A stretch of DNA of 64,000 nucleotides. Origin: an uncultured Thermoleophilia bacterium (GTDB lineage: Bacteria > Actinomycetota > Thermoleophilia > UBA2241). A model generated the notes under the pieces. It was not told the origin of the DNA. It did not search any database and was given only the letters and a program-made list of their open reading frames with translations. Both the position numbers and the translations under genes were made by a program. The stretch lies in contig CAWIDR010000037.1 of assembly GCA_963834905.1 (NCBI GenBank), forward strand, positions 93,023-157,022. The letters run 5' to 3'. This document shows positions 14,244 to 60,558 of this stretch, in pieces. The first letter of the stretch is position 1. Every line of letters starts with the position of its first letter.

Positions 14244-14720
14244 TCACGAGGGGGCGGCTCGGCGACGCTCGAAGACCCAGCGCGCGACAAGCCAACCCAC
14301 GGCCGCCGCGACGGCCGCCATCGCGACCGCTGCGACGATGTCGATCGGCGAGTGCACATGGGCGAGGACGCGAGCCACGCCGGCGGCCAGCGAGACGGCG
14401 ACCAGCACCAGCCCCCAGGGACGCGACACGACGAGGACGCACAGCGCGACGAACATGGTGACGGCCGTGTGGTCCGAAGGGAACCCGTTGTCCGCCGCGT
14501 GCGGGAAGAGCGGCGCCACGCCTGAGGTCACGAACGGCCGCGTGTCGTAGTACAGAGCGCCGCCGACCTTGATGAGCGCGAGGCAGACGATGCCACCGAC
14601 GACGCCGGCGACCAGTAACTCGAGCTTCTGCTGGCGCGGCAGACGCAGCCAGACCAAGAAGGCGATGACGAAGCTGACGATGAAGCCGTACTGCGCAAGG
14701 TCGGCGATGAGGGAGTCCAT
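14244..14720 (-). CDS. PAP2-family phosphatase (undecaprenyl-diphosphatase/BcrC-like), integral membrane
   Basis: FPSDHTAV and ARVLAHVHSPIDIV motifs; multiple TM helices. Confidence 0.75.
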   Translation of the reverse strand: MDSLIADLAQYGFIVSFVIAFLVWLRLPRQQKLELLVAGVVGGIVCLALIKVGGALYYDTRPFVTSGVAPLFPHAADNGFPSDHTAVTMFVALCVLVVSRPWGLVLVAVSLAAGVARVLAHVHSPIDIVAAVAMAAVAAAVGWLVARWVFERRRAAPS

Positions 14721-14806: not shown

Positions 14807-16247
14807 TCACGCCTCCGGATGGCCCAGCGCACCGGTCCGGATGAGCCCGCGCAGCAGTCCGGGATCGGCAGGCACGCCGCGGCTCCCGGCCTTCGGCGGG
14901 ATCTTGTCGCGGATCAGTCCACGCGCCGCGCTCGTCCCTCCGCCAAGCGGCCCGCGTCCGCGCAGGTCGATGGCCTGCACGGCGACGAGCGCCTCGATCG
15001 CGATGACGCCCTCTCCGAGGTCGACCATGGCCGCGAGGCGCCGCGCGCTCAGCGGTAGCAAGGTGGCGCGGTCCTCGATGCCCTCGGCGCCCGACGTGCT
15101 GACGACGGTGAACGACACCGGCTGCGCCAGCAGGGTCGCCTCCGCGGTCAGCGACTGCGCCGTGATGGCATGGATGCTGAGGCCCATGTCGGGCCGGTCG
15201 CGGTCCAGGCTGAGGCCGGTCGGCAGGCCCGACCAGGGCGTGTCCAGGAGCTTGACGGCGCGCTCGCTGGCCGCGGTGAACACCGAGGCGAGCGCGATGC
15301 GGACGTAGTCGAGGGTGGCCGCGAGCGGCAGACTCTCGTAGCTGGAGACGGAGACGATCTCGCCGGCGGCGACGTCCACGAGCGGGTTGCCCTGGGCCGC
15401 GTTCAGCTCGACCCCGAGCACGCCGAGCGCGTGCTCGAGCGCCTCGCGGCCGACCGCCTGCACGGCGACGGTGCTGCGGAACGTCAGCGGGTCCTGCAGG
15501 TTCCGCGCGGCGCCATCCTGCCAGAGGTAGCTGCCCTCGAGCAGCCCACGGGTGCGCGCGAGGGTGGCCGCGAAGCTCGCGTGAGGGCGCACGTCCTCGA
15601 CGCCGGGATGCAGCACGGAGAGGTTCGCGCCGAAGCCCTCCAGCGCGAGCGCGCCCGCGACATCCGCCGCGTCGAGCAATCTCTCCGCGTCGTGGAGCGC
15701 CAGCGCTGCCGACGCGGTGCCGAACGCGCTGTTGTTGAGCAGCGCGAGGCCTTCCCCTGCGCGCAACTCCATGTCTCCGATCACGCCGTGCGCGAGGTCG
15801 GCCATCGCCGAGAGATCGGAGACGCCGATGGATCCGTGCAGCCGGACGATGGGATGACGGTCGGTGTTGAGCGCCGCGAGCAGAGCGTCGGCCAGCTCCG
15901 GCCGGACGACCGTCGTCCCGCCGGCGAAGAGGTTGGCGACGACTGAGCATGGCCGCCCGCACGACGTCGTCCGTCGCCGGCGGCCCCTGTCCGGCGCGGT
16001 GGTCCTGGATCTGGCTGCGATTGAAGCGGCTGACGTCCTCACGGGTGACGGTCACTCGCTTCTGGGCGCCGTAGCCGGTGGTCAGGCCATAGGTGGGCAC
16101 GCCGCTCTCGAACACGCGCTGCGCCAGGGAGTGCGCGGCGGCCATCCGCTCGCGCGCCGCGGCGTCGAGCGCTACGCGTTCGCCGCGGCGCGCCACCGCC
16201 ACGACTTCGTCGACGGTCAGGTCCCGGCCTGTCAGGAGGACGGTCAT
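14807..16247 (-). CDS. Aromatic-amino-acid/histidine ammonia-lyase family protein lacking the Ala-Ser-Gly MIO triad (frameshift ~15946)
   Basis: N-terminus MTVLLTGRDLTVDEVVAVARRGERV..YGLTTGYG, core ..RLHGSIGVSDLSAMADLAH.. where hutH in this window has [29 protein letters not shown] and C-terminal helices are typical of the fold. Confidence 0.75.
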
Positions 16248-16348
16248 GCCGTGCGCATTCCCCGGTGGCGCGACAGGCGAACGTAGATCTGGCATCCGCT
16301 GCCGCTGCGGATGGCGCCCGCCCGGCAAAGCAGATACCTTACGGCGCG

Positions 16349-17839
16349 ATGGACAACGACCCCCTTCACGACTTCGAACTCCTGATCCGGTCCAGGTACG
16401 GCGCGCTGCAGATCGAGACGGCCGAGGAAGACCGCGCCGCAGCTCTCGTGGAGCGGGCGGCCTGGCAACTGCAGCTCCCGCTGTTCGTGTGGCGGCGCGC
16501 CACCGGGCTGCGCCGGGCGGGCGCGCCCAGCGGCGTCTACGGCAGCGAGGACCCGCGCGCGGCACTCGGCCACGTCATCAACTCGCAGCTTCCGGCCCTG
16601 TACGTGTTCCACGGCCTCGGGCCCGAGCTCGACAAGCCTGAGGTGGCCGACCTCTTGCGCGAGGCCGCGGAGCGGCTCGGCGGCCACTCCGGCGCCGTGG
16701 TCCTGACCGGGGGGGACGTCAGGCTCCCGGAGTCGCTGCGTACGGTCGTCGGCCAGGTGCACCTGCCGGCGCCCACCCGCGAAGAGTACGAGGACCTGCA
16801 GCGCCGCGTCGTGCAGGAGCTCTCGGCGCGCATGGGTGTCCAGGTGTCGCTGACGCCGGCCGACCAGGACCGCCTCCTCGCCAACCTCCAGGGGCTCACG
16901 CTCGCCGAGTCCGAGAAGCTGCTGACGCGGCTGATCGTCGAGGACGGCCGCCTCGACGCGGACGACATCACGCGGGTCGCCGAAGCCAAGCGGGAGCTGA
17001 TCGAACGGGATGGTCTGCTCGAGTATCAGCCGACCACACAGTCACTGGAAGAGATCGCCGACCTCGTGCAGCTCAAGGAATGGCTCGGGAAGCGGCGCCT
17101 GTTCATGGAAGACCCACGACGCGCCGCCGACTTCGGCCTCGAGTTCCCGCGCGGGATCCTGCTCGTCGGCGTCCCCGGTTGCGGCAAGAGCCTCTGCGCC
17201 AAGGCCGTCGCCGCGGCGTGGGGACTGCCGCTGGTGCGACTCGACCCCGGCGCGCTCTACGACAAGTACATCGGGGAGACCGAGCAGAACTTCCGCAAGG
17301 CTGTGACCGCGGCCGACAGGCTGGCGCCGCTGGTGCTGTGGATCGACGAGATCGAGAAGGCCTTCGCCGCAGGCGGCGGCGATGAGGACGGCGGAACGTC
17401 GCAACGCGTGCTCGGCACGTTCCTCTCCTGGCTGCAGGAGCGCCGCGGCGATGTCTTCGTAGTGGCCACGGCCAACGATGTCCAGCGACTGCCCGCCGAA
17501 CTGCTGCGCAAGGGCCGCTTTGACGAGACGTTCTTCGTGGACCTTCCCGACGAGGCCACGCGCGTCGCGATCCTGGACATCCACCTGCGCAAGCGCAAGC
17601 AGAAGCCCAGCGACTTCGACCTGGCGCTGCTGGCGCGCGAGAGCGAGGGCCACAGCGGCGCCGAGCTCGAGCAGGTCGTCGTCTCCGCGCTCTACACCGC
17701 CTTCTCGGCGAAGGTTCAGCTGAGCACCGAACTGCTGCTCGACGAGCTGCGCCGGATGCCGCCGATAGCCTCGATCGCGCGCGAGAGGATCGCCTTCCTG
17801 CGCCAGTGGGCCGGAGACCGCACCGTCCCGGCGAACTGA
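16349..17839 (+). CDS. AAA+ ATPase (CDC48/SpoVK-like single AAA module) with an uncharacterised N-terminal domain
   Basis: Walker A GVPGCGKS, Walker B LVLWIDEIEK, second region of homology ATANDVQRLPAELLRKGRFDE. Confidence 0.8.
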   Translation: MDNDPLHDFELLIRSRYGALQIETAEEDRAAALVERAAWQLQLPLFVWRRATGLRRAGAPSGVYGSEDPRAALGHVINSQLPALYVFHGLGPELDKPEVADLLREAAERLGGHSGAVVLTGGDVRLPESLRTVVGQVHLPAPTREEYEDLQRRVVQELSARMGVQVSLTPADQDRLLANLQGLTLAESEKLLTRLIVEDGRLDADDITRVAEAKRELIERDGLLEYQPTTQSLEEIADLVQLKEWLGKRRLFMEDPRRAADFGLEFPRGILLVGVPGCGKSLCAKAVAAAWGLPLVRLDPGALYDKYIGETEQNFRKAVTAADRLAPLVLWIDEIEKAFAAGGGDEDGGTSQRVLGTFLSWLQERRGDVFVVATANDVQRLPAELLRKGRFDETFFVDLPDEATRVAILDIHLRKRKQKPSDFDLALLARESEGHSGAELEQVVVSALYTAFSAKVQLSTELLLDELRRMPPIASIARERIAFLRQWAGDRTVPAN

Positions 17840-17864: not shown

Positions 17865-18905
17865 TCAGCCGTGCGGGGTGATCACGGCGCGCCCCAGAAC
17901 GGTGCCGGCGCGCAGGCGTTCGTAGGCATCCGCAGCGCGTTCGAGCGGGAACGACTCGGTGTGCGCGTGGATCTTCCCGGCGTGCGCAAGCTCCACGACC
18001 TCGACCAGTTCCCCGTAGCTGCCCCAGTAGGGGACGGTCACGCTCACGTCGAACGGCAGCGCTCCGTAGCCGACCGGGATCCGACCGCCGGCGAGCCCGA
18101 TGGCCTGGATGGCCCCGCCGGGACGGACCACCGTCGCCGCCAGCGCCATCGTCGCATCGGAGCCGACGCAGTCCAGCACGGCGATCGGGCCGAGCCCGCG
18201 CGTGAGCTCACGGATCCGCGCTGCCGCCGTCTCGCCGGCGGCGACCGTCTCCTCGGCGCCGACCTCGTGCGCCAGCTCGAGCTTCGCGCCGTCGACGTCG
18301 ACGGCGATCACCCGGGCGGCCGAGACCGCGCGCAGCAGTTGCACCGCCATGTGTCCGAGGCCGCCGATGCCGATCACCAGCGCCCAGGCGCCCGGCGTGA
18401 GCAGCGGCAGCACCGAGCGGATGGCGTGGTACGGCGTCAGGGCGGCGTCGGAGAGCGGCGCCGCGGTGCCAGGGTCGAGGTCACCGAGGGACACGAGCAG
18501 ACGCGCGCTGGGGACCAGCATGTACTCGGCCATGCCGCCGTCGAGGCCAAAGCCGCCGACGGGCACGTCCTCGGTCATGGCCAGCTCGCAGAGCGTCTCG
18601 CGTCCCGCGCGACAGGCCGCGCAACGACCGCAGCCCCAAGGACCGTATGCGATGACGGGTTCGCCGATCTGCCACCCGTCGACGCCCGGTCCAAGCGCCT
18701 CGATCCAGCCGGCGTTCTCGTGTCCGAGCGTGAACGGCAGCTCGTAGTCGTGAGTACCCTCGGGCCAGTCCATCATGCGCAGGTCGGTGTGGCACGCGCA
18801 GGCGCCCCCCATCTTGAGGAGGACCTCGCCGATCCCCGGCTCGGGAATCGGCACGTCGCGCGGCTCCGGCGGCTGCTGCCAGGCGACCAGCTGGTAGGCC
18901 TTCAT
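17865..18905 (-). CDS. Zinc-dependent alcohol dehydrogenase (MDR family)
   Basis: CHTDLR, GHENAGWIEALG, GPWGCGRCAACRAGRETLC (structural Zn), GIGGLGHMAVQL Rossmann motif. ATGA overlap with the upstream gene. Confidence 0.85.
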   Translation of the reverse strand: MKAYQLVAWQQPPEPRDVPIPEPGIGEVLLKMGGACACHTDLRMMDWPEGTHDYELPFTLGHENAGWIEALGPGVDGWQIGEPVIAYGPWGCGRCAACRAGRETLCELAMTEDVPVGGFGLDGGMAEYMLVPSARLLVSLGDLDPGTAAPLSDAALTPYHAIRSVLPLLTPGAWALVIGIGGLGHMAVQLLRAVSAARVIAVDVDGAKLELAHEVGAEETVAAGETAAARIRELTRGLGPIAVLDCVGSDATMALAATVVRPGGAIQAIGLAGGRIPVGYGALPFDVSVTVPYWGSYGELVEVVELAHAGKIHAHTESFPLERAADAYERLRAGTVLGRAVITPHG

Positions 18906-20338
18906 CCGGCGGGAACCACCGCGTCCAGCCGCTCAGCGAGGCCGCCGGGCAGCGGCGCGACTTCGTGCGTCGCCAGCAGCTCGCGCGCCTTCTGGCGCGC
19001 CTTCTCGGTGGCGTCGAGCGCGCCGCCCTCTGCCCAGCGGTCGTAGCTCGCCCGGTTGAGGATCTGGGCGCGCCACTGGTTGCTGCGCAGGTTGCGGCGC
19101 GTGTGCCGCTGCCCGAGGAAGTCGCCGCCGGCGCCGACCGCCTTGATCACGTCCACGGCCAGCGTCTCGTCGGAGACCTCGAGCTCGGCGAGCAGCCGCC
19201 GGTCGCGGGCGATGAACTCGGCCACCAGCACGACCTCCGCGAGCGAGCCGGAGAGGCCGAAGTCCATGTAGCCGACGTCGTGGTTCAGGTTGGCGCCGAG
19301 CTGCATGGAGAGCTTGGTGATCTCGTCCGCCTCCATGCCCGCCTGGGCGTCCACGACCTGCGCGTCGGTGTGGCCGCTGAAGCCCCAGTTGGGGATGTCC
19401 AGCCACTTGGCCATCTCGACCTCACACGCGTACGCGCGGATGAACTCAGGAGAGTTGTACGACGACTGCGACGTACCCATGTCGAGGGTGTTGGGGCCCT
19501 GGCCGATGACGAACGGAGCGCCCGGGGCGCGAAGCTGGTGCATGACCAGCCCGAAGAGCGCCTCCGCGAGGCCGAGCGTGATCTGGCCGGCGGTGGTGAT
19601 GGGAGCGGTGCCGCCGGCCACCGGCGAGGGGCAGTAGGTGGACGGGACGCCCTTGTCGGCGCAGAAGAGCAGCTTGTCCACCGTCTCGAACGGGTGCTTG
19701 AGCGGCGTGACCGGCTGGTTGTACATGACGAAGTACGGCTTCTCGCGCAGTGCCGCCTCGCCGCCGCGGACCTCGCAGGCCATGCGCCACATGGGCTCGA
19801 CCGTCTCGACGCCGCCGGCGGTCATCACCAGCGGCTTGGTCGTGGCGGCGATCATCGCGCGGAACTGCCGCGGGTACGCCTCCTGGGCCTCCATGCCGTC
19901 CGGGTAGGCGCCCGACATGACGAAGTCGAGGTCGGGCAGCGCGTCGCAGAGGCGAGCCGCCTCGCCGACGTCTTCCAGTCTGCCGAGGCGGCGCTCCCCG
20001 GTCTCCAGATCGTGCAGGTGCATGACGTCGGAGCCGTTGCCGAAGTAGGAGCGGAGGCCGCCGAGGTCCATGGCCGGCTCGCCGGCGCGGTCGTAGACGA
20101 CGAAGCTCCTGGGCACGGACTCGCGCGCCTGCTCGACGAGGGCGGCCGGAACGTGGACGAGGCCGGCCTCGTCCCTGGTGCAGCCGCCGTCGAGCATGAC
20201 CTGCTCGCCCTCTTCGTGGAGCACGACCATGCCGATGTCGGCGAGGATGCCGAGGGCCGTCTCGTAGATGCGCTGCTTCTGCTCTTCGCGGAGGAAGCTG
20301 ACGCGGCCGGCGCCGATCTCCTTGCTGCTCTGTGCCAT
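18902..20338 (-). CDS. MttB-superfamily methyltransferase, non-pyrrolysine type (quaternary-amine/betaine methyltransferase-like)
   Basis: FLREEQKQRIYETALGILADIGM.., SPVAGGTAPIT, MAKWLDIPNWGFSGHTDAQVVDAQAG (His at the Pyl-equivalent column), GDFLGQRHT. AGGAG RBS before the ATG at 20338. Confidence 0.85.
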   Translation of the reverse strand: MAQSSKEIGAGRVSFLREEQKQRIYETALGILADIGMVVLHEEGEQVMLDGGCTRDEAGLVHVPAALVEQARESVPRSFVVYDRAGEPAMDLGGLRSYFGNGSDVMHLHDLETGERRLGRLEDVGEAARLCDALPDLDFVMSGAYPDGMEAQEAYPRQFRAMIAATTKPLVMTAGGVETVEPMWRMACEVRGGEAALREKPYFVMYNQPVTPLKHPFETVDKLLFCADKGVPSTYCPSPVAGGTAPITTAGQITLGLAEALFGLVMHQLRAPGAPFVIGQGPNTLDMGTSQSSYNSPEFIRAYACEVEMAKWLDIPNWGFSGHTDAQVVDAQAGMEADEITKLSMQLGANLNHDVGYMDFGLSGSLAEVVLVAEFIARDRRLLAELEVSDETLAVDVIKAVGAGGDFLGQRHTRRNLRSNQWRAQILNRASYDRWAEGGALDATEKARQKARELLATHEVAPLPGGLAERLDAVVPAG

Positions 20339-20419
20339 GGTCACTCCTGGACGGCGTTGCGGGCGAGGCGGCCACCACGTCGGGCAGCCGCCTCGCCGAA
20401 CACTACACCGTCTGCGGGC

Positions 20420-21890
20420 CTACTTCACGCCGAGTTCGCGTTCCGCGCCCTCGATTATCGAACGAAGTTCTGCGGCCACCTCGTCGGACAGTGGTTCCGG
20501 CTGGTGCGTCTCGAGGATGCGCCGGGCCTCGGCGAGCGAGCGGTCGTACAGCGTCGTCGCGCCGGCGGCGGTCCACTCCTCGCGGACCCGCCGGTCGATG
20601 AGCTTCGAGTTCGACTGCCCGCGCATGCCCTTGTAGGTGTCCTCGTGCGAGAGGAAGTCCTTGAACGGCCCGACCTCGTCGATGACGTCGACGGACAGCG
20701 TCGCGTCCGTCACCGGGATCCCCGGCACGCAGAACTTGACCATGCGCGCGAACTCCGCATCCATGACCAGTTGCGCGTAATCGATGGTGACGCCCGACTC
20801 CAGCATCCCCAGCCCGTAGATCAGGTTGGCCCCTGCCAACGCCGGCAGCAGGCTGGTGATCGTCTTCTCGTGACCGGATTGGGCGTCCGCCACTTTGGAG
20901 TCGCCCTACGCACCGGCCACCCAGCTGGGCAGCAGGTAGAAGCGCGCGAGGCAGGCGACGCCGGCGCCGATCATGCCGCACTCGGGGCTGCCCACCGAGG
21001 CGCTGGCGAAGCGGAGGTCCATGGCGGTGGTGGACGAGCCGTAGATGACCGGCGCGCCCCTCTGCGTGAGCTGCGCCAGCGTGATGCCGCTGAGCACCTC
21101 GGCGTTGTGGGTGACGAGCGTGCCGGCGAGCGACACGGGCGAGGAGCCGCCGGCCATCGCCATGGAGAGCACGTTGACCGGGATGCCGGCGCGGGCGCCG
21201 GTGATGATGATCTCGCAGGCGTCCTTGACCAGCTTGAGCGGGCTCACGGGGCAGGTCAGGAACGACAGGATGGGGCGGCGGCGCAATGCCTCCGCCCCGC
21301 CGGCGATCGCCGCCGCCATGTCGATCATCTTGCGGGCGCAGAAGCCCGAGAGAGGCCCGATGGTGGCGTGCTTGGTGGTGTTGCTGAAGATCGCCTCGGC
21401 GTTGTGCAGCGCCGCCGTGTCCGGCGGCACGTCGTGGGCGCCGAGCGGCCGCTCGACGACGTCGATCTCCGGCAACGCGTCGATGATCTTCGTGCAGTCG
21501 GCGACGTCCTGCTTGCGGCTCTCGTGCAGCTCGCCGGTGTACGGGTCGACGACCTGGATGCCCTCGCCGAAGTTGGTGAAGCCGACCCGGCCGTCCTCGA
21601 GCACGACGTCCCGGGCCGGGTCGCGGCCGCACATGACGACGGTGGAGGGCGCCGAGCGGACCGCGTCCTCGACGAGGTGCGCCGGCAGGCGCACCACGTT
21701 CGTGGCCGCGGTCGACGTCGGCGCCCGCCGCCGCGAAGATCTGCCGGGCTTCGTCGTCCTCGACGAAGACGCCCGTGCGCGACAGCACTTCGAGCGTCGC
21801 GCCGTGGATCTCGCGCAGCTCGTCGTCGGTGAACACCTCGAGCCTGAAGCCGCCGCTCTTGCGCGCTCCCGCGCGCGGGTTTCTGATCAT
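20420..21890 (-). CDS. mttB: Trimethylamine:corrinoid methyltransferase MttB with an in-frame TAG (20906-20908) at the pyrrolysine position; one frameshift ~21711
   Basis: ORFs 20906..21697 and 20420..20893 share one frame and are separated only by TAG: ..[43 protein letters not shown].. Also GIPVNVLSMAMAGGSSPVSLAGTLVTHNAEVLSGITLAQLT. The N-terminus LEVFTDDELREIHGATLEVL lies in a third frame. Confidence 0.85.
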
Positions 21891-21891
21891 G

Positions 21892-23286
21892 TCAGCCTCC
21901 CGCCGTGCGTTCCTTGAACTTCTCGACGCTGTTGATGGGCACGTCGAGCACCCGGGCGATGTTGAACTTCGCCTCGATCTGGTTGGCCTGCCCCGGCTGG
22001 CTGATCGCGTAGCTGTGGACGCGGCCGAAGCCGAACTCGTTGCGGACGTCGGTCATGGCGACCGGGTCCGAGAGGTCGAACGGTGTCACGCCGAGCTTGT
22101 CGGCGACGTACTGCTTGGCTTCCTTGAGGCGCATGCCCCGAGTCATCTGCATACGGGCAACCAGGTCTCCGCCTGCCCGAATACCGCCGATGCTCGCGGC
22201 TTGCGCGTGGGCGTTGTGCATCCCATGGGGATCGCCCGAACCCACCTACAACCCGTCCACGTGCAGCAGCTCGACGAAGGACTTGGCCGCCCGGCAGACC
22301 GCGTCGGAGGGCAGGTGGACGAACATCGGCACGCCGCCGACGCCCATGCCGGCGTTGGGGTGCACCGGGATCTCGGCGACCTCCATGCACGGCTTGATCA
22401 GGGCGATGGCGCGCGCCATGTTCCAGGCGAGCGACTTGCCGGTGTTGATGTTGACGACGGGGCCGAACATCGTGGCGCCGGCCTTCTGCGCGAGCAGGAG
22501 CTGCTCGCGCGGCCAGAGGCCGGCCAGCCGCACGCCGTCCCACTCGAGCTGGCCGTGCATGCCGAGCACGAACTCGCCGGCCATGCCCAGCTGCACGCCC
22601 ATGTCGGGGTACTTCTCGCGGATGATCTTCGTGGCGCGCAGCGCCGCGAGGAACTCGGGATCGCCGGAGGCGCCGGTCGTGTCCCAGTCGATCGCGTCCG
22701 CCCCGGCCTCCCACTGCGAGTCGGCCAGCTTGACCATGTCCTGGACGGCCATCTCGACCGCCTCTTCGGCGGCGGCGCGCGCCTCCGGGATCTTGCCCAG
22801 CGGCAGCAGCTCGTTCCAGTTCTCGCACGGGCCGTCCGGCTTGGAGTAGAGGCCCAGGTTGGGCATGACGCCGTACTGCAGCGGGGCGATGGTGCACAGC
22901 TGCGCGTCGTGCATGTACTGGGCCTCGTACGCCAGGATCGTGCGCACGACCTTGAGGGAGTAGTCGCCGACGCAGAGCTCCAGGAGGTCGGCGCCCATCC
23001 ACTGCTCGTAGGACTGGAGGTCCTGGATGCGCGTCGCGTGGGTCTTCATGCCGGTGCCGTCGCAGCTGAGGACGATCTCCTCGCCCACGTCGACCCCGAT
23101 GAAGCGCAGCGGCGAAGCGTAGATCTCGAGCAGGTGGTCGATCTCGTCGTCGGTGAGCAGCGGCACCTTGGCGCGCTTGGCCGCCATCTCGGACCCTGCG
23201 ATGAGATCAGCCCGGATCTCGCTGCGCGTCATCTGCGTGAAGGTGCCGTCGCCCATGCGGGTCGGCACCCTGGCTTCGTGCGTCAT
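21892..23286 (-). CDS. mtbB: Dimethylamine:corrinoid methyltransferase MtbB with an in-frame TAG (22246-22248) at the pyrrolysine position
   Basis: ORFs 22246..23370 and 21892..22245 share one frame and are separated only by TAG: ..AKSFVELLHVDGL-TAG-VGSGDPHGMHNAH..IRAGGDLVARMQMTRGMRLKEAKQYVADKLGV.. Also PDGPCENW, GMAGEFVLGMHGQLEWDGVRLAGLWP, GMGVGGVP. Start at MTHEARVPTRMGDG with a GGGGGAGGAAA RBS. About 464 codons. Confidence 0.88.
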
Positions 23287-23333
23287 ACGTTTCCTCCCCC
23301 TGAGAAAAGGCCGCGACCCGCGCTTCGCGGCCG

Positions 23334-23357
23334 CACTAATCAACCGGTCAATTAGCG
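23334..23357. promoter_or_regulatory. Same operator motif upstream of mtbB (site A): reverse strand reads CGCTAATTGACCGGTTGATTAGTG
   Basis: 20 of 22 positions are identical to site B. On the mtbB strand a TTGACA lies ~31 nt upstream, the same spacing as at site B. Confidence 0.55.
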
Positions 23358-23474
23358 TGATACAGTCCACCCCAGCGGACCGGTGATGTCAAGACGGGCC
23401 GCCGATGGTCCGGACAGGTATCATCGCGGCGCCGCGGCGTGACGCGGAGTGACGAAGACGGAAGAAGGCGGGCG

Positions 23475-51650: not shown

Positions 51651-52547
51651 CTAGGCCCAGGCGGGCTCGCAGGGCGGGCTCAGCGCGAGCATGTTCCAGG
51701 CATCGTACGCAAGCCCCACCGCCGCGTGCTGCTTGTACGGCAGGGAGTAGCGGCCGGGGATGGACTCCTGCACGGCCGCCACGCATCCCTCTGCGAACAG
51801 CCGGGCGGTCTCCTCGTCTGCGGGCAGCCCGGCAAGCGACTGCTCGAGGCCCGAGGCGCGGAAGGCGGCTCCGCCCACCGCGCCGAGCGCCACACGCACC
51901 TCGGCGAGCGTGCCGGCGGCCGCGTCGAAGCGCACGACGAGCGCGGCGCTCAGCCGGGCGACGCTCACCGCAGTGCGCGAGCCGATCTTGGCGAAGGCCG
52001 AGCGATGCTCCGGTCCGAGCGCCGGGAACGAGAACTCGGTGATCGCCTCGTCATGCCGAGGCTCGTCCGGCTGGGGCCGAGGAGGACCTCGCCCAGCGGC
52101 CGGGTCGTGGATACTCCCGGCGCCGTCGATGGTCGTCACGTCGGCGCCGAGGGCCGTGAGCGCCGTCGCGCCGTCGGCGCAGGGCGACGCGTTGGCGATG
52201 TTGCCGCCGATCGTGCCGGCGTTACGGATCTGCACGGAGCCCACCTGGGCAGCGGCGAGGCCGAGGCACAGTGCGTGCTCGCGCACGAGCGGGTCCCTCT
52301 GCAGCTCGCTGAACGCCGTCGTCGCGCCGACATGGAGCGTGCCGCCGTCCAGGCGGACGTAGGAGAGCTGCCCGAGCCCCGTCAGGTCGATGATCACGTC
52401 CGGCTCGCTGCCGGGCAGCCGGATGGCGCGTACCAGGTCGGTGCCGCCGGCGAGCAGCCTCGTCCGCGGCGTAGCCGCCTTGAGCGCGGCGACCAGCTCG
52501 TCGATGCCGGCCGGCGTCACGACGTCAGTCACGGGCACGTCACTCAT
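51651..52547 (-). CDS. Xanthine-dehydrogenase-family FAD-binding subunit (CoxM/XdhB-like); compensated frameshift pair ~52060/~52120
   Basis: LLAGGTDLV, RNAGTIGGNIANASP. The internal stretch SIHDPAAGRGPPRPQPDEPRH reads STTRPLGEVLLGPSRTSLG in the +1 frame. Confidence 0.8.
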   Translation of the reverse strand: MSDVPVTDVVTPAGIDELVAALKAATPRTRLLAGGTDLVRAIRLPGSEPDVIIDLTGLGQLSYVRLDGGTLHVGATTAFSELQRDPLVREHALCLGLAAAQVGSVQIRNAGTIGGNIANASPCADGATALTALGADVTTIDGAGSIHDPAAGRGPPRPQPDEPRHDEAITEFSFPALGPEHRSAFAKIGSRTAVSVARLSAALVVRFDAAAGTLAEVRVALGAVGGAAFRASGLEQSLAGLPADEETARLFAEGCVAAVQESIPGRYSLPYKQHAAVGLAYDAWNMLALSPPCEPAWA

Positions 52548-53250
52548 CTCCTTCGGGGTCGGCCGGAGCGGCGGGCGGGGTGACGGGGGCGCCGGTCGAT
52601 GAAGCCGGGGCTCCCGGCGGTACGGCGGGCGCGTCAGGCGACGGGAAGGCCTCGGGGGCCGGGGCCGCGGCCTCCGTCAGCTCGGCCGCGGCCGCCTCGA
52701 CGACCTCCTTGACGACGGCCAGGGTCTCCGGGTCGGTGCTGACCTCTGCGGCGAGCTCTTCGGCCTCGCCGGGCAGCACCATCGCCGGCGTCGCGTCATG
52801 GCCGCCGGCCGCCTTCACGGCGGCGACGATCGCCGCGTAGCCGGTGCAGCGACAGAGGTTGCCGGCAAGGGCGATGCGGATGTCCTGTTCGGACGGCACC
52901 GGGTTGGCCATGAGCAGCGCCTTGGCGGACATCAGCATGCCCGGCGTGCAGTAGCCGCACTGCACCGCGCCGTACTCGACGAACTTCTGCTGCAGGAGGT
53001 CGAGCTCGCCGCCTTCGGCGAGGCCCTCGACCGTCAGCACGTCCTTGCCGCGCGCCTGCACGGCGAGCATCACGCACGAGTTGACTGCCTTGCCGTCGAC
53101 GATGACGGTGCAGGCGCCGCACTCTCCCTCGGCGCAGCCCTCTTTGGTGCCGGTCAGACCGAGCTGGTCGCGAAGGACGTCGAGCAGCCGCGCCGTAGGG
53201 CGCGCCTCCACCTCGTACTGCATGCCATTGACGGTCAGCAGGAGCTGCAT
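52540..53250 (-). CDS. Xanthine-dehydrogenase-family [2Fe-2S] small subunit (CoxS-like) with a ~85-aa Ala/Pro/Glu-rich C-terminal extension
   Basis: GCAEGECGACTV, NSCV, QCGYCTPGM, NLCRCTGY. The tail is ..AAAPAPEAFPSPDAPAVPPGAPASSTGAPVTPPAAPADPEGDE. Confidence 0.85.
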   Translation of the reverse strand: MQLLLTVNGMQYEVEARPTARLLDVLRDQLGLTGTKEGCAEGECGACTVIVDGKAVNSCVMLAVQARGKDVLTVEGLAEGGELDLLQQKFVEYGAVQCGYCTPGMLMSAKALLMANPVPSEQDIRIALAGNLCRCTGYAAIVAAVKAAGGHDATPAMVLPGEAEELAAEVSTDPETLAVVKEVVEAAAAELTEAAAPAPEAFPSPDAPAVPPGAPASSTGAPVTPPAAPADPEGDE

Positions 53251-55512
53251 GCGGGCACCTCCTCGGGCGCGTGAAGAGCGCCGATGATGCGCTCGGGCAC
53301 GAGCGGCAGATCGGAGAGCTCCGTGCCCAGTGCGTTGTTGACGGCATTGACGATCGCCGGGCGCGGTGGGCACCGTGGCGATCTCGCCGACACTCTTGGC
53401 GCTGAACGGCCCGTCGTCCCCTTCGTGCTCAACGAGAAGCACCTGGATGTCGGGCATGTCCGGCGCATTCACCATGTGGTAGTTCTTGAACCCGTCGATG
53501 CCGCTGCGGCCCTGCTCATCGACGTCGAGGTGCTCGTACAGCGCGTAGCCGATGCCCATCTGCACGGCGCCCTGGTACTGGGCTTCGACCATGCCACGGT
53601 TGATCGCCCGTCCCACGTCGGCGACGGCGAGGAAGTCGTTGACCGCGACCAGGCCGGTCGCGGTGTCGACTTCGACCTCGGCGAACTGCACCGAGTACGA
53701 GGCGGGATTGGAGACCGCGTAGTAGGTCGTCGACGCGGCGATGGACGGCACGTGGCGCATCTCGCTGAGGCGCGCGATGTCACGGTAGGCGATCGCGCGC
53801 TCCGGGTCGTGCTTGACGCGGACTGCGGCGTCGCGGGTGTACAGGTGAACGACCGGCTCCTTGAGCAATTCGGCGGCTGCCTGGAGGAGCCGCCCCTTGA
53901 CCTTCTCGGCGGTCACTCGGGCGCACTGGCCGACGACGTAGGTCACGCGGCTGCCGTAGGTGCCGTAGTCGAACGGCGTGGTCGCCGTGTCCGCCTCTCC
54001 GGCGGCGATGCGGTCGGGGTGTACGCCGAGGACCTCGGCGACGATGATCTTCATCGTGGTCACGACGCCACAGCCGGGATCGTGCAGGCTGGCGTTGAGC
54101 TCGAACGTGCCGTCCTCGTTCATCTTGAGCGACATGTTGCTCGCCTCGGGGAACGCGCCGAACATGCCGTTCTTGTGGGCGCCGGCGGCGACGCCGACGC
54201 CGCGCCGCAGGCGGCCCCGCCCCGCGGGGCGGGCCCTGCGCGCGGCCCAGTCGAAGGCCACGGCGCCGCGCTCGAGGCACTCGCGCACGCGCGCGTCGCC
54301 GAGCGGCAGGCCGGTCACGAGGTCGGTGTCGAAGGGCTCGACCATGTTCTTGAGGCGGAGCTCGACCGGGTCGAGCCGCAACGCGGCCGCCACCCGGTCC
54401 ATGTGGATCTCGGTGGCCGCGGCGATCTCCGGGGCGCCCCAGCCGCGGGCGGCGCCCCCGACCGGCGTGTTGGTCAGCACGGCGCGACTCATGTGCCGGT
54501 AGTGCGGCGTGCGGTACAACTTGGTGACCTTCTTGCACATGTGGATCGAGTAGTCGGGCGTGCTCGAGGCGTAGGCGCCTGAGTCCAGAGTGGAGGCGGC
54601 CTCGAAGTCGAGCAGCATGCCGTCCGGCGTGCAGGCGGTGCGGATCGTCGTCCAGGTCGCAGGGCGGACCATCGTCGCGATCATGCACTCCTCGCGGTCG
54701 AGGAGGAGCTTGACGGGCCGACGGGTGGCATGCGCGAGGAAGGCGCAGACCGGCTCGATGATGTACTCGGTCTTGCCGCCGAACGAGCCGCCCATCGGGA
54801 CCTTGATGACACGCACGCGGTGGTACTCCATGTCGAGGAGCTCCGCGATCACGGTACGCGCCGCATAGACGCCCTGGCTGGTGGTCCAGACGGTCATGCC
54901 GCCGGTGCTGTGGCCCTGAGCGATGCAGACGTGCGGCTCCAGCGCGGCGTGGTGGACGCGCGGGGTGCTGGTCGACGACGAGACGACGACCGCGCCCTCG
55001 AGGTCGGGGCGCTGGCCCTTGTCGATCTCGCTCTCGTACGCGACGTTGCCGGTGGAGTGGACGAGGACGTCGGTGCTGGCCAGCGCCTCGTCGACGGTGA
55101 GCAGCGGGGGAAGCTCCTCGTACTCGATCTCGACGAGCGCCGCGGCCGCCTCGGCGGTGGCCTTGCTCGTCGCCACGACCGCGGCGACGCGGTCGCCGAC
55201 GAAGCGCACGTGCTCGCTGAAGAGCGTCTCGTCGTGCGGCGCGAGGTCCTGGCCGGGATGGATGCGCGCCCGGCAGAACCGGGTCATCGGGGAGTTCTCG
55301 TGCGAGAAGACCTTGACGACGCCGGGCATGGCCTCAGCGCGAGAGGCATCGACCCGTTTGACCATGCCGTGCGGGATGGTGCTGAGAATGAGTTTGGCGT
55401 GGAGCATGCCCGGCATGCTGAAGTCGCTGCCGTAGACGAGCTCCCCCGTCACCTTCTGGGCCACGTCGTGGACGGGGTAGCTGCCCCCGACGTACTGCAG
55501 GTCCTCGGTCAA
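53235..55512 (-). CDS. Xanthine-dehydrogenase/aldehyde-oxidase-family molybdopterin-binding large subunit (frameshift ~53360)
   Basis: GAGGAGA RBS then TTG. YVGGSYPVHDVAQKVTGEL, GGSFGGK, GWGAPE, GQGAVQMGIGYALYE, KSVGEIATVP. Confidence 0.8.
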
Positions 55513-55547
55513 GCTGCCGTTCTCCTCTCGGTCGTCTTCTCTGGCGG

Positions 55548-57185
55548 TCAGATCAGGTTGCCCGGAGGTCTGTCCTCCGGGCGGCTCTCGTCGAACCAGC
55601 GCCGGTACTCGGCCTTGCAGGCCTGTGCCGCCGGCGCCAGGCAACATCCGCCCTCCGAGGTGCACAGCAACTCGGGCGGCAGGGCGCGGCCGATGCGGTC
55701 GGCGACGTCGATCGCCTCGTGCAGCGGCAGCACCGCCTGGTGGCCTGCGAGCGACAGGTCGGCGAACACGTGGGCCATGCAGGTCGCCGCCATGATGCGG
55801 CTGCGGCACGGCTGGCTGAGTCCGCCGGGCATCGGGTCGCACGGAAGGCCCATGAACGCCTGAAGGGCGAGCGAAGCCGCGTTCTCGACAGCTTCGGGGG
55901 ACCCGCCGACCATCTCCACGATCGCGGCCGCGGCCATCGCGCCGCAGACACCGGATTCGCCCGTACAGCCTAGCACTTCGCCGGTGGGTTCGGTGCGGGT
56001 GTAGGCGATGGCGCCGATGCCGGCGGCGACGAAGAGCCCGCGGAGCAGGTCGTCATCGCTCAGCCCGCGGGCCTCGCAGACGGCGCTGAGGGCGGCGTAG
56101 ATGTAGCCTGCCCCGCCGCCCATCGGCCCCGGTACGTTCTCGACGCCGGGCACGCCGGCGCCGGCGCCGTAGGCGTACTTGATCGTCTGCGCCGTGACGC
56201 CGTCGCTGACGCGGGCCGGCGTCTCCGCGTGCCTCATCCAGCGGCCGGCGAAGTCCGGCTTGAACTCGGTGTCGATGACGGCGACGTCCTCTTCGTAGAC
56301 GGCGCGGGTCTGCCGGCGCATGACCAGCGACAGCTCACGCATGCGGTCGACGACCCAGCTGAAGGGCCAGCCTGAGGCGTCCATCTCGTACTGGACGGCG
56401 ACCTCCCAGAGCGGGAGGTCGTTCTCGGCCGCGAGCTCGCGCCAGCGCGTCATGGTGTCGAAGAGCTGGGGCTTGCGGTCCGGCTGGCTGACGACCGGCA
56501 GGAGCGGCCGCAGCAGCGCCAGCCGGAGCACAGGAACGTCGCCGTCGAGCACCTCGCGCAGCGCCGGGAGATCCGGCTCGACAGGCACCGCGAAGGCGTA
56601 GAGGACCCCGCGGCCGTCGACGGGCACGGTCTGCGCGTCGACCACGTCGAGGAGCTCGGCCCTGAGCCGCTCGAGCTTCTCGTCGCTCAGGGCCTCCTGC
56701 GGATCCTGCACCAGCAGCACGAAGGCGTCGCCCAAGGTCTTGTACGGGAACCCGTCGATCGTCACCGTCTCGACCATGCCGCCGCCGGTGGAGTCGCCGA
56801 CCAGGTCGACCATCAGGCCGCTCTTGCCGGTCAGGACGAACTTGATGGCGTTGGGATGCTTGCTCTCGGTGATCTCGGTGAAGGCGAACTCGACGGCGAC
56901 CCCGGCCTCCTCCGCGAGTTCGAAGCTGCGGAACAGCCGGGGATCGTCGGGCAGGTAGCCGAGGACGCCGGCGACCATCGCCCGGTCCTCGGCCATGATG
57001 CCGAAGGTGCCGGCGAAGGAGCCGTTCGGGTCGAGCTCGACGCGCATCCGGGCGACCGGCTCCCCGAGCAGGCAGCCGGCGAGATAGCCGAGACGGCACG
57101 GCCCGGCGGTGTGCGAGCTGGAGCCGGGCTGCATCACCGGCCCGAAGACGTCGTTGAAGAACTCGGGGTAGGGCGCGACGGTCAC
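55548..57185 (-). CDS. sdaA: Iron-sulfur L-serine ammonia-lyase, fused beta-alpha form
   Basis: FNDVFGPVMQPGSSSHTAGPCRLG, ACT-like beta domain, then GGGAGYIYAALS, GCTGESGVCGAMAAAA, CDPMPGGLSQPC. Confidence 0.75.
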   Translation of the reverse strand: MTVAPYPEFFNDVFGPVMQPGSSSHTAGPCRLGYLAGCLLGEPVARMRVELDPNGSFAGTFGIMAEDRAMVAGVLGYLPDDPRLFRSFELAEEAGVAVEFAFTEITESKHPNAIKFVLTGKSGLMVDLVGDSTGGGMVETVTIDGFPYKTLGDAFVLLVQDPQEALSDEKLERLRAELLDVVDAQTVPVDGRGVLYAFAVPVEPDLPALREVLDGDVPVLRLALLRPLLPVVSQPDRKPQLFDTMTRWRELAAENDLPLWEVAVQYEMDASGWPFSWVVDRMRELSLVMRRQTRAVYEEDVAVIDTEFKPDFAGRWMRHAETPARVSDGVTAQTIKYAYGAGAGVPGVENVPGPMGGGAGYIYAALSAVCEARGLSDDDLLRGLFVAAGIGAIAYTRTEPTGEVLGCTGESGVCGAMAAAAIVEMVGGSPEAVENAASLALQAFMGLPCDPMPGGLSQPCRSRIMAATCMAHVFADLSLAGHQAVLPLHEAIDVADRIGRALPPELLCTSEGGCCLAPAAQACKAEYRRWFDESRPEDRPPGNLI

Positions 57186-58321: not shown

Positions 58322-59223
58322 AGCAGCGTGTCCAGCACCTGGGCCTCGAGGACCTGGTCGCGACTGAAGCTCGTCGCGTAGAGCACCGACCGCGCCAGCC
58401 GCACCAGGGCGTCCTGCGGCAGCAAGGCCGACGACCTCACTCTCACGGATCGGGACTCCGGCTGCGGTGGCCCGTTCGCCGATGGCGGCGACGACGTCCG
58501 CCATGGACGTCACGCGGTAGTCGGTGAGGTTCATCGAGACCTGCACGGTGCCGTCCTCGAGGAGCAGGCCCATGGCCTTGACGCACTTCATGCCGCCGTC
58601 GCGCTCGCGGATCGCGACGGCGATGCTCTTCGCAAGGTCGAGGTCGTCGGAGTCCAGATTCACGTTGAAGGCGATGAGCGGGAAGCGCGCGCCGATGGCG
58701 ATGGCTCCCGCCGTCGGGTGGACGCGCGCCTCGCCCTCGTCCGGAGTCTTCAGAGGCTCGCTGCCGATGACCTCGCGCATCTCCTCGAAGCCCTTGCCGC
58801 GGAAGGCGGCGAGGTTCTTGTGCTCGGGGATGCGGGCCGCGTCCTCGTAGAGGAACACGGGGATCTGGAGCTCGGCGGCGACCCGCTTCGCAAGCAGCTG
58901 CGCCGTCTCGAGGCAGGCCGGCGCGTCCTCCGGGCGCAGCGGGACGAACGGCAGCACGTCGGTGGCTCCGAAGCGCGGGTGTGCGCCCTCGTGCTGGTTG
59001 AGGTCGATGAGCTCGGCTGCCTTCTTGACGGCGCGGAACGCCGCCTCGGCGATCGGTCCCTCGTGGCCGACGAAGGTAACGACGCGAGCGGTTGTGCGTC
59101 GGGTCGCTCTGCACGTCGAGCAGGCTCACGCCCTCGACGCTGCGCACGGCAGCGGCGATCTGCTCGATCACCTCGGGCCGGCGACCTTCGCTGAAGTTGG
59201 GGATGCACTCGATGAGGGTCACG
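58318..59223 (-). CDS. Glutamate formimidoyltransferase (FtcD N-terminal domain only); frameshifts ~58430 and ~59085
   Basis: VTLIECIPNFSEGRRPEVIEQI, DPTHNRS|VVTFVG, GATDVLPFVPL, IPVFLYE, MKCVKAMG; C-terminus ..LPQDALV..QVLEAQVLDTLL*. Confidence 0.75.
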
Positions 59224-60556: not shown

Positions 60557-60558
60557 CG

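What the first reader, a model, noticed from the sequence alone, without database searches (positions are those of the whole stretch)
14807..16247. HAL-family lyase without the MIO triad, 1.6 kb from the Pyl TMA/DMA methyltransferase operon: candidate trimethylamine-releasing betaine lyase
The window holds two HAL-fold genes.
- hutH (60559-62079) has the canonical [14 protein letters not shown].
- This paralogue reads GSIG-VSDLSAMADLAH. The Ala-Ser-Gly that cyclises to MIO is replaced by Val-Ser and is one residue shorter, with no frame break at that point.

Established knowledge, from memory: ergothionase (ergothioneine trimethylamine-lyase) is a HAL/PAL-fold enzyme that works without MIO and releases trimethylamine.

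Inference: a MIO-less lyase sitting next to Pyl-type mttB/mtbB could feed them TMA from ergothioneine, hercynine or a similar N-trimethyl amino acid. Such compounds are common in high-GC Gram-positive bacteria.
Basis: partly seen in the sequence, partly recalled or inferred. Interest (0 to 1): 0.6.

Follow-up and report, generated by a model that had tools for sequence, protein, structure and literature searches.

The report
Cofactor-less betaine lyase gene, Thermoleophilia
This gene encodes a relative of histidine ammonia-lyase that has lost the enzyme's built-in cofactor and most likely splits trimethylamine off a trimethylated histidine such as hercynine; it belongs to a large untested family of soil actinobacteria that this scan has met before, and its nearness to the pyrrolysine methyltransferase genes looks incidental.

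Summary
Window 14807-16247 (minus strand) encodes a HAL-fold (PF00221) protein whose MIO loop reads GSIGVS-DL. That is one residue shorter than GSLGASGDL in the window's true hutH.

The loss is a family trait:
- All 202 relatives examined (Thermoleophilia/Gaiellales MAGs) lack the triad.
- On a tree of 92 cluster representatives, MIO-less and ASG sequences separate with one change.

A family profile hits Treponema ergothionase (6s7j) best, at 297 bits against 264 for HAL. The family shares ergothionase's short loop, Lys64, Leu for HAL Tyr280 and Glu for HAL His. It keeps the catalytic Tyr and the carboxylate and imidazole ligands, but ergothionase's thiolate-binding Lys384 is Ile here.

Best reading: a cytoplasmic trimethylammonia-lyase for a sulfur-free histidine betaine such as hercynine.

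- The window copy has a one-base insertion near 15941 that breaks the frame, probably an assembly error.
- The link to the Pyl mttB/mtbB operon, which is real, is weak. An opposite-strand gene lies between them. The synteny holds only in relatives at about 90% protein identity or more. Orthologues at 69-84% identity sit in a hut / Mo-hydroxylase cluster. MttB genes beside such lyases in relatives are all non-Pyl.

The scan found this family before on other DNA. It is a new member of a known kind.

The parts
14807..16247 (-). MIO-less HAL-fold lyase gene (about 479 codons), read in two frames: 16247-15945, then 15943-14807
   Evidence: PF00221 hits both pieces. Read-through protein P0001. The orthologue in L022 has 98% protein identity and is intact.
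15940..15944 (-). Frame break: one extra base in AGT[C]GTCGCC compared with the intact orthologues
   Evidence: It is the only indel against L022 in 1441 nt. A Logan contig of run X3 lacks one base at 15940. Similar isolated extra bases break the neighbouring Pyl mttB (21706) and an esterase.
15812..15835 (-). Former MIO loop, GSIGVSDL (HAL: GSxGASGDL), one residue shorter
   Evidence: Ergothionase has a loop of the same length, SSIGEGDI.
14244..14720 (-). PAP2-family membrane protein gene downstream, syntenic only in the closest relatives (context)
16265..17839 (+). AAA+ ATPase gene, divergent from the lyase, lying between it and the methyltransferase operon (context)
17865..23370 (-). Methyltransferase operon: Pyl mtbB (21892-23370, TAG at codon 375), Pyl mttB (20420-21886, TAG at codon 327, N-terminal frameshift), non-Pyl MttB (18902-20344), Zn alcohol dehydrogenase (17865-18905) (context)
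51654..62079 (-). hutH / HutI-like amidohydrolase / formiminotransferase / SDH-alpha-like / XDH-family Mo-hydroxylase cluster. Orthologues of the target lyase sit inside this block in L023 and L025.

Best explanation
The gene encodes a cytoplasmic, MIO-independent lyase of the ergothionase / histidine-betaine-lyase type (a 'trimethylammonia-lyase'). The likely mechanism is as follows. The conserved loop Tyr53 removes the beta-proton of an N-alpha-trimethyl amino acid. The permanently charged trimethylammonium group then leaves as trimethylamine in a Hofmann-type elimination, so no MIO electrophile is needed. The product is an alpha,beta-unsaturated acid. The carboxylate ligands (Gln251, Arg257, Asn287) and the imidazole ligands (His83, Glu391) of histidase are kept. 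The thiolate-binding Lys of ergothionase is Ile. The most likely substrate is therefore a sulfur-free histidine betaine such as hercynine, which would give urocanate for the hut genes on the same contig. The trimethylamine could be used by the organism's Pyl-dependent MttB, but that coupling is inferred only. Shown here: the fold, the family-wide loss of MIO, the residue pattern, and the grouping with MIO-less rather than ASG sequences. Inferred: the reaction and the substrate. The frame break in this copy is most likely an assembly error.
For: 1. Family trait. 202 of 202 relatives lack Ala-Ser-Gly, and the two loop residues vary (VS, AS, QA, ES, QG and others), so no conserved Ser could form dehydroalanine.
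2. Retained residues: Tyr53 in 202/202; Gln251 and Arg257 in 202/202; Asn287 in 201/202; Glu391 in 199/202. The target has all of them, plus His83.
3. Ergothionase-type signature. A family profile scores ergothionase 6s7j at 296.6 bits against 263.7 and 259.5 for HALs. The alignment is gapless over positions 3-161, so the loop has the same length. Lys63 (201/202) matches ergothionase Lys64, where HAL has Ala or Ser. Leu254 matches the ergothionase Leu, where HAL has Tyr280. Glu304 matches the ergothionase Glu, where HAL has His.
4. Tree of 92 cluster representatives. The MIO state changes once. The target lies in a 52-row MIO-less clade (99 SH-aLRT) beside a 20-row clade that holds all 17 rows with Lys at the ergothionase Lys384 site.
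5. It is not a HutH: 260 bits against the TIGR01225 cut-off of 539.
6. Published enzymology. MIO-less PF00221 enzymes release trimethylamine from ergothioneine, histidine betaine or N-pi-methyl histidine betaine. Loss of Lys384 was used successfully to predict a sulfur-free substrate (bioRxiv 10.1101/2025.08.13.670108 and 10.64898/2026.04.22.720169).
7. Context in relatives. 59 of 80 loci have a methyl-transfer gene (MetE-like, MttB or BHMT-like) within 3 kb. Urocanase lies directly beside the lyase in L018. Orthologues of the target lie beside hutH, a HutI-like amidohydrolase and a Mo-hydroxylase.
8. The gene was under purifying selection until very recently: 70 synonymous against 7 non-synonymous codon differences from L022.
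9. Assembly error. Intact orthologues exist. One independent contig lacks the extra base. About a quarter of the MttB genes, pylD and a second lyase are also split between frames.
Against: No activity data exist for any member of this clade. Identity to ergothionase is only 27%. The fold comparison ties ergothionase with HAL (TM 0.90 against 0.92). Single-sequence scores also tie. The characterised enzymes could not be placed in the tree, so calling the Lys361 clade 'ergothionases' rests on the signature alone. The residue at the Lys384 site (Ile) differs from both characterised sulfur-free enzymes, which have Asn and Gln. Half of the wider family has Ser instead of His83. The window itself holds no transporter or urocanase next to the gene. 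The MttB neighbours of relatives are of the quaternary-amine (non-Pyl) type, which fits a route other than 'lyase makes TMA for Pyl-MttB'. The frame break is supported as an error by only one low-depth contig.
Confidence: 0.6

Rival explanations
1. The enzyme is a trimethylammonia-lyase for ergothioneine or another 2-substituted (thio- or seleno-) histidine betaine. A positive residue other than Lys384 would hold the thiolate. The SDH-alpha / cysteine-desulfidase-like protein and the Mo-hydroxylase that accompany its orthologues would process the thio-imidazole product.
For: The best profile hit is ergothionase. Orthologues in L023 and L025 sit beside a PF03313 (serine dehydratase alpha / cysteine desulfidase family) gene and an XDH-family molybdoenzyme. 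The target subclade has His359, Arg84 and Arg393 near the site.
Against: The residue at the Lys384 site is Ile or Val in 184 of 202 relatives and never Lys. The literature reports Lys384 as essential. Sequences with Lys at this site form a separate clade. Only one urocanase-family gene, a candidate thiourocanate hydratase, was found in the 64%-complete genome.
Confidence: 0.12
2. The lyase does not act on the intact betaine. It works after, or together with, a methyltransferase (non-Pyl MttB, MetE-like or BHMT-like). It would then eliminate dimethylamine or methylamine from a partly demethylated histidine, or it acts on a non-histidine aromatic betaine.
For: 59 of 80 loci in relatives have such a methyltransferase within 3 kb, and 38 have a MetE-like gene directly upstream on the same strand. 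The adjacent MttB genes are all non-Pyl, which is the quaternary-amine-demethylating kind. His83 is Ser in 82 of 202 relatives.
Against: The characterised MIO-less lyases are reported to require the trimethylamino group strictly. An N-H on the leaving group would be deprotonated before the beta-carbon (chemical reasoning). The target itself keeps both imidazole ligands and has no such methyltransferase as an operon partner.
Confidence: 0.15
3. In this organism the gene is a recent pseudogene. The one-base insertion is real and the protein is truncated after about 100 residues.
For: The assembly shows the extra base. No raw reads of the source sample could be laid.
Against: It is the only indel in 1441 nt, and substitutions are 70 synonymous against 7 non-synonymous. 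A 97%-identical contig from another sample lacks the base. The same kind of isolated extra base breaks pylD, the Pyl mttB, about a quarter of the MttB genes and the other MIO-less lyase. Earlier notes on this genome reached the same view.
Confidence: 0.15
4. It is an ordinary histidine or aromatic amino acid ammonia-lyase that makes a cofactor from the altered loop.
For: The fold and the substrate ligands are those of HAL.
Against: The Gly needed for cyclisation is deleted. The loop residues are not conserved across the family. HAL Tyr280 is Leu. The score is far below the HutH cut-off. The tree separates it from all ASG sequences.
Confidence: 0.02

Closest known systems
Histidine betaine trimethylammonia-lyase Swoo_3913 of Shewanella woodyi (bioRxiv 10.1101/2025.08.13.670108)
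   Same: PF00221 fold without Ala-Ser-Gly. The catalytic Tyr, the Gln/Arg/Asn carboxylate ligands and the His/Glu imidazole ligands are kept. A neutral residue replaces ergothionase Lys384. The expected products are urocanate and trimethylamine.
   Different: Swoo_3913 is periplasmic, Mg2+-dependent and coupled to a urocanate reductase for anaerobic respiration, and it has Asn at the Lys384 site. The target has no signal peptide (it aligns with HAL from residue 1), has Ile at that site, and comes from Actinomycetota. Their sequence identity could not be measured here.
Ergothionase of Treponema denticola, Td_ETL (PDB 6s7j/6s7q)
   Same: It is the best profile hit (296.6 bits). It has the same shortened loop and shares Tyr54, Lys64, His84, Leu at the HAL Tyr280 position, Glu at the HAL His position, and Glu412. 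TM-score 0.90.
   Different: Identity is 27%. The thiolate-binding Lys384 is Ile361 in the target. There is a two-residue insertion before the IED motif. No thiourocanate hydratase partner was found.
N(pi)-methyl histidine betaine lyase SO_3299 and ergothionase SO_3057 of Shewanella oneidensis (bioRxiv 10.64898/2026.04.22.720169)
   Same: They are MIO-less PF00221 lyases that strictly need a trimethylamino group. SO_3299 shows that a neutral residue at the Lys384 site goes with sulfur-free substrates, and that the substrate need not be plain hercynine.
   Different: They are periplasmic and encoded in flavocytochrome c operons. SO_3299 has Gln at the site. They were not compared by sequence here.
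Histidine ammonia-lyase HutH (P. putida, PDB 1b8f; the window's own hutH at 60559-62079)
   Same: Same fold (TM 0.92), 28-34% identity, and the same substrate carboxylate and imidazole ligands.
   Different: HutH has the Ala-Ser-Gly MIO triad, Tyr280 and His at the positions where the target has a shortened loop, Leu254 and Glu304. The target scores 260 bits against the TIGR01225 cut-off of 539.

Membership tests
Aromatic amino acid lyase fold (Pfam PF00221) | Significant match to the family model over the whole length | tested here: met
   83 + 245 bits for the two pieces against a cut-off of 27.3. The AF2 model of the orthologue has pLDDT 88 and TM 0.9 to HAL and ergothionase.
MIO-dependent ammonia-lyases / aminomutases (HAL, PAL, TAL, TAM) | Ala-Ser-Gly (or Thr/Cys variant) triad that cyclises to MIO | tested here: not met
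   The loop reads GSIGVS-DL, with the Gly deleted. The triad is absent in 202 of 202 relatives.
HutH histidine ammonia-lyase (NCBIfam TIGR01225 equivalog) | Score at or above the curated cut-off | tested here: not met
   260.4 bits against a cut-off of 539.15. The window's hutH scores 644.2.
MIO-less trimethylammonia-lyases (ergothionase / histidine betaine lyase type) | No MIO triad, with the catalytic loop Tyr retained | tested here: met
   Tyr53 is invariant and aligns with ergothionase Tyr54.
MIO-less trimethylammonia-lyases (ergothionase / histidine betaine lyase type) | Carboxylate ligands (Gln, Arg, Asn) and imidazole ligands (His, Glu), as listed by Bertsova et al. | tested here: met
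   Gln251, Arg257, Asn287, His83 and Glu391 are present in the target.
MIO-less trimethylammonia-lyases (ergothionase / histidine betaine lyase type) | Groups with MIO-less rather than ASG sequences | tested here: met
   The MIO state changes once on a 92-row tree, and the target lies inside the MIO-less side (94 and 99 SH-aLRT). The profile prefers 6s7j by 33 bits. Caveats: it is a quick tree of the 150 nearest representatives, and the characterised enzymes are not in it.
MIO-less trimethylammonia-lyases (ergothionase / histidine betaine lyase type) | Releases trimethylamine from an N-alpha-trimethyl amino acid | not testable with these tools
   This needs an enzyme assay.
Ergothionase (ergothioneine trimethylammonia-lyase) | Lys384 (Td_ETL numbering) for thiolate formation and binding | tested here: not met
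   It aligns with Ile361. The site is Ile or Val in 184 of 202 relatives, and none has Lys.
Ergothionase (ergothioneine trimethylammonia-lyase) | Thiourocanate hydratase (urocanase homologue) partner | tested here: inconclusive
   There is one PF01175 gene in the genome, the hutU-like C37:160248-161951. The genome is only 64% complete.

The most novel reading that the evidence does not exclude
In Thermoleophilia, MIO-less lyases may be the entry step of an undescribed anaerobic route for histidine betaines. The lyase would work with an XDH-family molybdenum hydroxylase and a [4Fe-4S] SDH-alpha / cysteine-desulfidase-like protein on the imidazole acrylate product. In paralogous clusters it would work with non-Pyl MttB, MetE-like or BHMT-like methyltransferases. 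The released trimethylamine would be captured by pyrrolysine-dependent MttB, which would make hercynine-type betaines methylotrophic substrates in soil.
Probability: 0.2. Interest if true: 0.6.

Novelty: new member of a known kind. Interest (0 to 1): 0.33.

Why it matters
Trimethylamine-releasing lyases for histidine betaines have been characterised only in a spirochaete, Burkholderia and Shewanella. This gene belongs to a very large actinobacterial branch found in hundreds of soil, wetland and sediment MAGs, all of it annotated as 'histidine ammonia-lyase'. If the reading is right, databases misname a widespread enzyme. Soil Thermoleophilia would then be unrecognised consumers of hercynine-type betaines and sources, or internal users, of trimethylamine. 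The residue at the ergothionase Lys384 site (Ile here) would add a third variant to the emerging specificity code. For this particular gene the added value is modest: the family was flagged before by this scan, and the attractive link to pyrrolysine methylotrophy is not supported by conserved gene order.

Tried and rejected
- Reading through the frame break with CTCA=L failed, because the word recurs in frame. ATGC=M gave P0001. Comparison with L022 shows the true reading is ...AAMLSVANLF..., so P0001 differs by about one residue at the joint.
- A tree with the characterised enzymes (Td_ETL, Burkholderia ergothionase, Swoo_3913, SO_3057, SO_3299) could not be built. Their sequences are not retrievable by id. 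Only alignments printed by the PDB search were available.
- Foldseek does not separate ergothionase from HAL. Neither do single-sequence phmmer scores: the N-terminal and middle parts are closer to HAL and the C-terminal part is closer to ergothionase.
- Reads: only Logan contigs were available and no run held more than 39% of the words. Parts without cover say nothing. The one-base deletion at 15940 rests on one contig of depth 2.7.
- My first single-linkage clustering of neighbour ORFs was contaminated by antisense ORFs of GC-rich DNA. I replaced it with tblastn counts using Pfam-checked queries.
- EgtD (PF10017) was not found, but the genome is 64% complete, so no conclusion follows.
- No B12-binding gene lies on contig C37.
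- The sigma-70 promoter and terminator scan around the gene was uninformative.
- Literature searches for hercynine+MttB and for MttB+ammonia-lyase found nothing relevant.
- No complex prediction was run.
Full report
**1. The observation**

The finding lies on the minus strand. The ATG is at 16247, and the reading frame runs to 15945 (101 residues, ending ...VRAAML). It then continues one base out of phase from 15943 to the stop at 14807-14809.

Both pieces match Pfam PF00221 (aromatic amino acid lyase), with 83 and 245 bits.

Window 15788-15838 (-) reads HGSIGVSDLSAMADLAH. The window's true hutH (60559-62079, also minus strand) reads [14 protein letters not shown]. It passes the HutH equivalog TIGR01225 with 644 bits against a cut-off of 539.

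The quoted span of 1441 nt is 480 codons plus one base.

**2. The frame break**

The closest orthologue (L022) has 92% DNA identity over the region and 98% protein identity. Against it the window gene has exactly one indel in 1441 nt: an extra C in AGT[C]GTCGCC near 15941. The orthologue reads ...AAMLSVANLF....

Substitutions between the two are 70 synonymous against 7 non-synonymous codon differences. The gene was therefore under purifying selection until very recently.

A Logan contig of an unrelated wetland run (X3, 297 nt, 9 mismatches) lacks one base at 15940. No inserted or deleted letters were listed in the MIO loop for the contigs of X3 and X4 that cover it.

The assembly is a 2.6-Mb MAG, 64% complete, and it is full of such breaks:
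- About 9 of about 37 MttB genes are split between frames.
- The other MIO-less lyase is split.
- pylD is split.
- The Pyl mttB next door is split.

Against L022, the breaks in the lyase (15941), the mttB (21706) and an esterase are all isolated extra bases in the window.

I read the frame break as an assembly error (about 0.8), with a very recent pseudogene as the alternative. Earlier notes on this genome (e1-4531744, e1-1242317) reached the same view.

**3. A family trait, not a private lesion**

The protein database holds thousands of relatives. The best are intact proteins of 471-485 residues at 55-92% identity, from Thermoleophilia, Gaiellales and other Actinomycetota MAGs.

I aligned 202 relatives (120 database hits, 80 genome loci, and this genome's own copies).
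- Every one has two residues between the Gly and the Asp of the loop. These two residues vary freely (VS, AS, QA, ES, QG, QS and others). That excludes MIO and also a conserved dehydroalanine-forming Ser.

Conserved residues:

| Residue | Count | Note |
|---|---|---|
| Tyr53 | 202/202 | |
| Gln251, Arg257 | 202/202 | |
| Asn287 | 201/202 | |
| Glu391 | 199/202 | |
| Lys63 | 201/202 | HAL has Ala or Ser |
| Leu254 | 199/202 | HAL has Tyr280 |
| Glu/Asp304 | 201/202 | HAL has His |

His83 is His in 111 relatives, including the target, and Ser or Thr in 91.

**4. Relation to known enzymes**

Single-sequence comparisons tie HAL with ergothionase: 108 against 105 bits. The fold comparison also ties: TM 0.92 against 0.90, with 27-28% identity.

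A profile of 18 family members separates them. Ergothionase of T. denticola (6s7j) scores 296.6 bits, and the best HALs score 263.7 and 259.5.

The printed alignment is gapless over positions 3-161. It shows that ergothionase has:
- a loop of the same length (SSIGEGDI);
- the same Lys (its Lys64);
- the same Leu in QDPLSFR, where HAL has Tyr280;
- the same Glu in ANFEI, where HAL has His.

It also matches Tyr54, His84 and Glu412.

The one clear difference is ergothionase Lys384, which aligns with Ile361. This site is Ile or Val in 184 of 202 relatives and is never Lys.

According to Bertsova et al., Lys384 forms and binds the thiolate and is essential. Its replacement by Asn (Swoo_3913) or Gln (SO_3299) goes with sulfur-free substrates, namely histidine betaine and N-pi-methyl histidine betaine. 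All characterised MIO-less lyases need the trimethylamino group.

**5. Does it group with ordinary HAL?**

An exhaustive HMMER search of 1.84 billion cluster representatives gave 150 best hits.
- The first ASG-bearing representative appears only at 224 bits (37% identity). All nearer ones are MIO-less.
- On a quick ML tree of 92 full-length rows the MIO state changes once. The 19 ASG rows, including this genome's hutH and HAL2, lie on one side. All MIO-less rows lie on the other (SH-aLRT 94, next branch 99).
- Within the MIO-less side there are two clades. A 20-row clade contains all 17 rows with Lys at the 384 site. A 52-row clade (99) has none and contains the target.

Caveats: this is a quick tree of a sample chosen by similarity to the query, and the characterised enzymes are not in it.

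**6. Gene context**

In the window the lyase is followed by a PAP2 gene. It is preceded, divergently, by an AAA+ ATPase gene (16265-17839, plus strand).

Beyond that lies a minus-strand operon:

| Gene | Coordinates | Note |
|---|---|---|
| mtbB | 21892-23370 | TAG at codon 375 |
| mttB | 20420-21886 | TAG at codon 327 |
| non-Pyl MttB | 18902-20344 | |
| Zn alcohol dehydrogenase | 17865-18905 | |

The genome has pylD. The 'Pyl TMA/DMA methyltransferase operon' is therefore real, as earlier follow-ups also found (e1-4531743, e1-4531744).

The functional link to the lyase is weak, for four reasons:
- The two are separate transcription units.
- Contig C37 carries about 12 MttB genes in 184 kb, so a neighbour within 3 kb is unsurprising.
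- The AAA/PAP2/MttB synteny is shared only by the three closest relatives (L020-L022).
- The next orthologues sit elsewhere. In L023 (84% identity) the order is SDH-alpha-like (PF03313), XDH-family Mo-hydroxylase large and small subunits, lyase, XdhC. In L025 (69%) the order is hutH, amidohydrolase..., SDH-alpha-like, lyase, Mo-hydroxylase L/S/M.

The window has the orthologous block without the lyase, 38 kb away. The order there is hutH, a HutI-like amidohydrolase, formiminotransferase plus an enolase-superfamily protein, SDH-alpha-like, and Mo-hydroxylase L/S/M, spanning 51654-62079. That ties the target's lineage to histidine-type catabolism rather than to the Pyl operon.

**7. Context across the whole family**

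Counts in the 80 loci from species-representative genomes:

| Neighbour | Loci |
|---|---|
| MetE-like (PF01717) gene directly upstream, same strand | 38 |
| Homocysteine S-methyltransferase (PF02574) | 17 |
| MttB-family gene within 3 kb | 21 |
| At least one of these three | 59 |
| MFS transporter | 26 |
| Formaldehyde-activating enzyme | 10 (within 3 kb) |
| Urocanase within 10 kb | 4 |

The separately fetched locus L018 has the order MttB, corrinoid protein, urocanase, lyase.

All 22 lyase-adjacent MttB genes have an ordinary residue (Cys, Thr, Gly, His and others) at the pyrrolysine position. They are the quaternary-amine kind, not trimethylamine methyltransferases.

The family is thus firmly tied to methylated-amine metabolism. 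The pattern does not specifically support 'lyase feeds TMA to Pyl-MttB'.

This genome's second MIO-less paralogue (C37:170657-171962, also frame-split, Ser83) ends an operon of three MttB genes, a solute-binding protein, a TIM-barrel protein and an opine-dehydrogenase-like protein. A Mo-hydroxylase gene follows it.

The scan has described the same clusters on other DNA (e1-3632137, e1-1146840, e1-3963161, e1-4834288, e1-5154860).

**8. Verdict**

The gene encodes a cytoplasmic MIO-independent lyase of the ergothionase / histidine-betaine-lyase type. There is no signal peptide, since the protein aligns with HAL from residue 1.

The most probable reaction is elimination of trimethylamine from a sulfur-free histidine betaine (hercynine or a close analogue), giving a urocanate-type acid. 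I put confidence at about 0.6 for the class and about 0.4 for hercynine itself.

Ergothioneine is unlikely, and ordinary histidase activity is excluded by sequence.

The kind is known (ergothionase; histidine betaine lyase, 2025-2026 preprints). This actinobacterial clade is uncharacterised and generally annotated as histidine ammonia-lyase. It is a new member of a known kind, of moderate interest, and it has already been met several times by this scan.

Noticed in passing
G000:C37:170657-171962 (-), outside the window: A second MIO-less paralogue (loop GSLGAS-DL, Ser83-His84), also split by a frameshift. It is the last gene of a minus-strand run: three non-Pyl MttB genes, SBP_bac_5, a xylose-isomerase-like TIM barrel, an opine-dehydrogenase-like gene, then the lyase. 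An XDH-family MoCoBD gene follows. An IclR regulator lies divergently upstream.
   Followed up: partly
G000:C37:181671-183047 (+), outside the window: A third full-length HAL-fold gene has Ala-Cys-Gly instead of Ala-Ser-Gly (GSVGACGDLAP). It scores 501 bits, just under the HutH equivalog cut-off of 539. It sits next to the IclR gene of the triple-MttB operon.
   Followed up: no
window 51654-63820 (-): A long minus-strand catabolic cluster: succinyl-CoA ligase beta and alpha, hutH, a HutI-like amidohydrolase, formiminotransferase plus an enolase-superfamily protein, an SDH-alpha / cysteine-desulfidase-like protein (PF03313), and a three-subunit XDH-family molybdenum hydroxylase. The pairing of hut genes with a Mo-hydroxylase and a PF03313 protein is unexplained. 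It recurs next to MIO-less lyases in L023, L025, L028, L030, L031 and L034.
   Followed up: partly
window 20420-21926 (-) and G000:C14:51304-52087: The Pyl-type mttB has an N-terminal frameshift (extra base at 21706 against L022), and its terminal stop is also TAG. pylD is split into two frames. Both fit an indel-prone assembly.
   Followed up: partly
whole genome G000: There are about 37 MttB-family genes (47 PF06253 matches) in 2.6 Mb. Four have a single in-frame TAG, and about 12 lie on contig C37 alone.
   Followed up: no
L020-L099 (relatives): In Gaiellales-type relatives the lyase is nearly always preceded by a MetE-like (PF01717) gene. It is often flanked by a homocysteine S-methyltransferase (PF02574) and an MFS transporter. 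Another subclade pairs it with formaldehyde-activating enzyme and an enolase-superfamily protein.
   Followed up: partly
P0132, P0152, P0165, P0172 (cluster representatives): A small clade inside the MIO-less group has lost even the G-x-x-D-L loop motif (for example LLGGSLHT), while keeping Tyr53 and Lys63.
   Followed up: no
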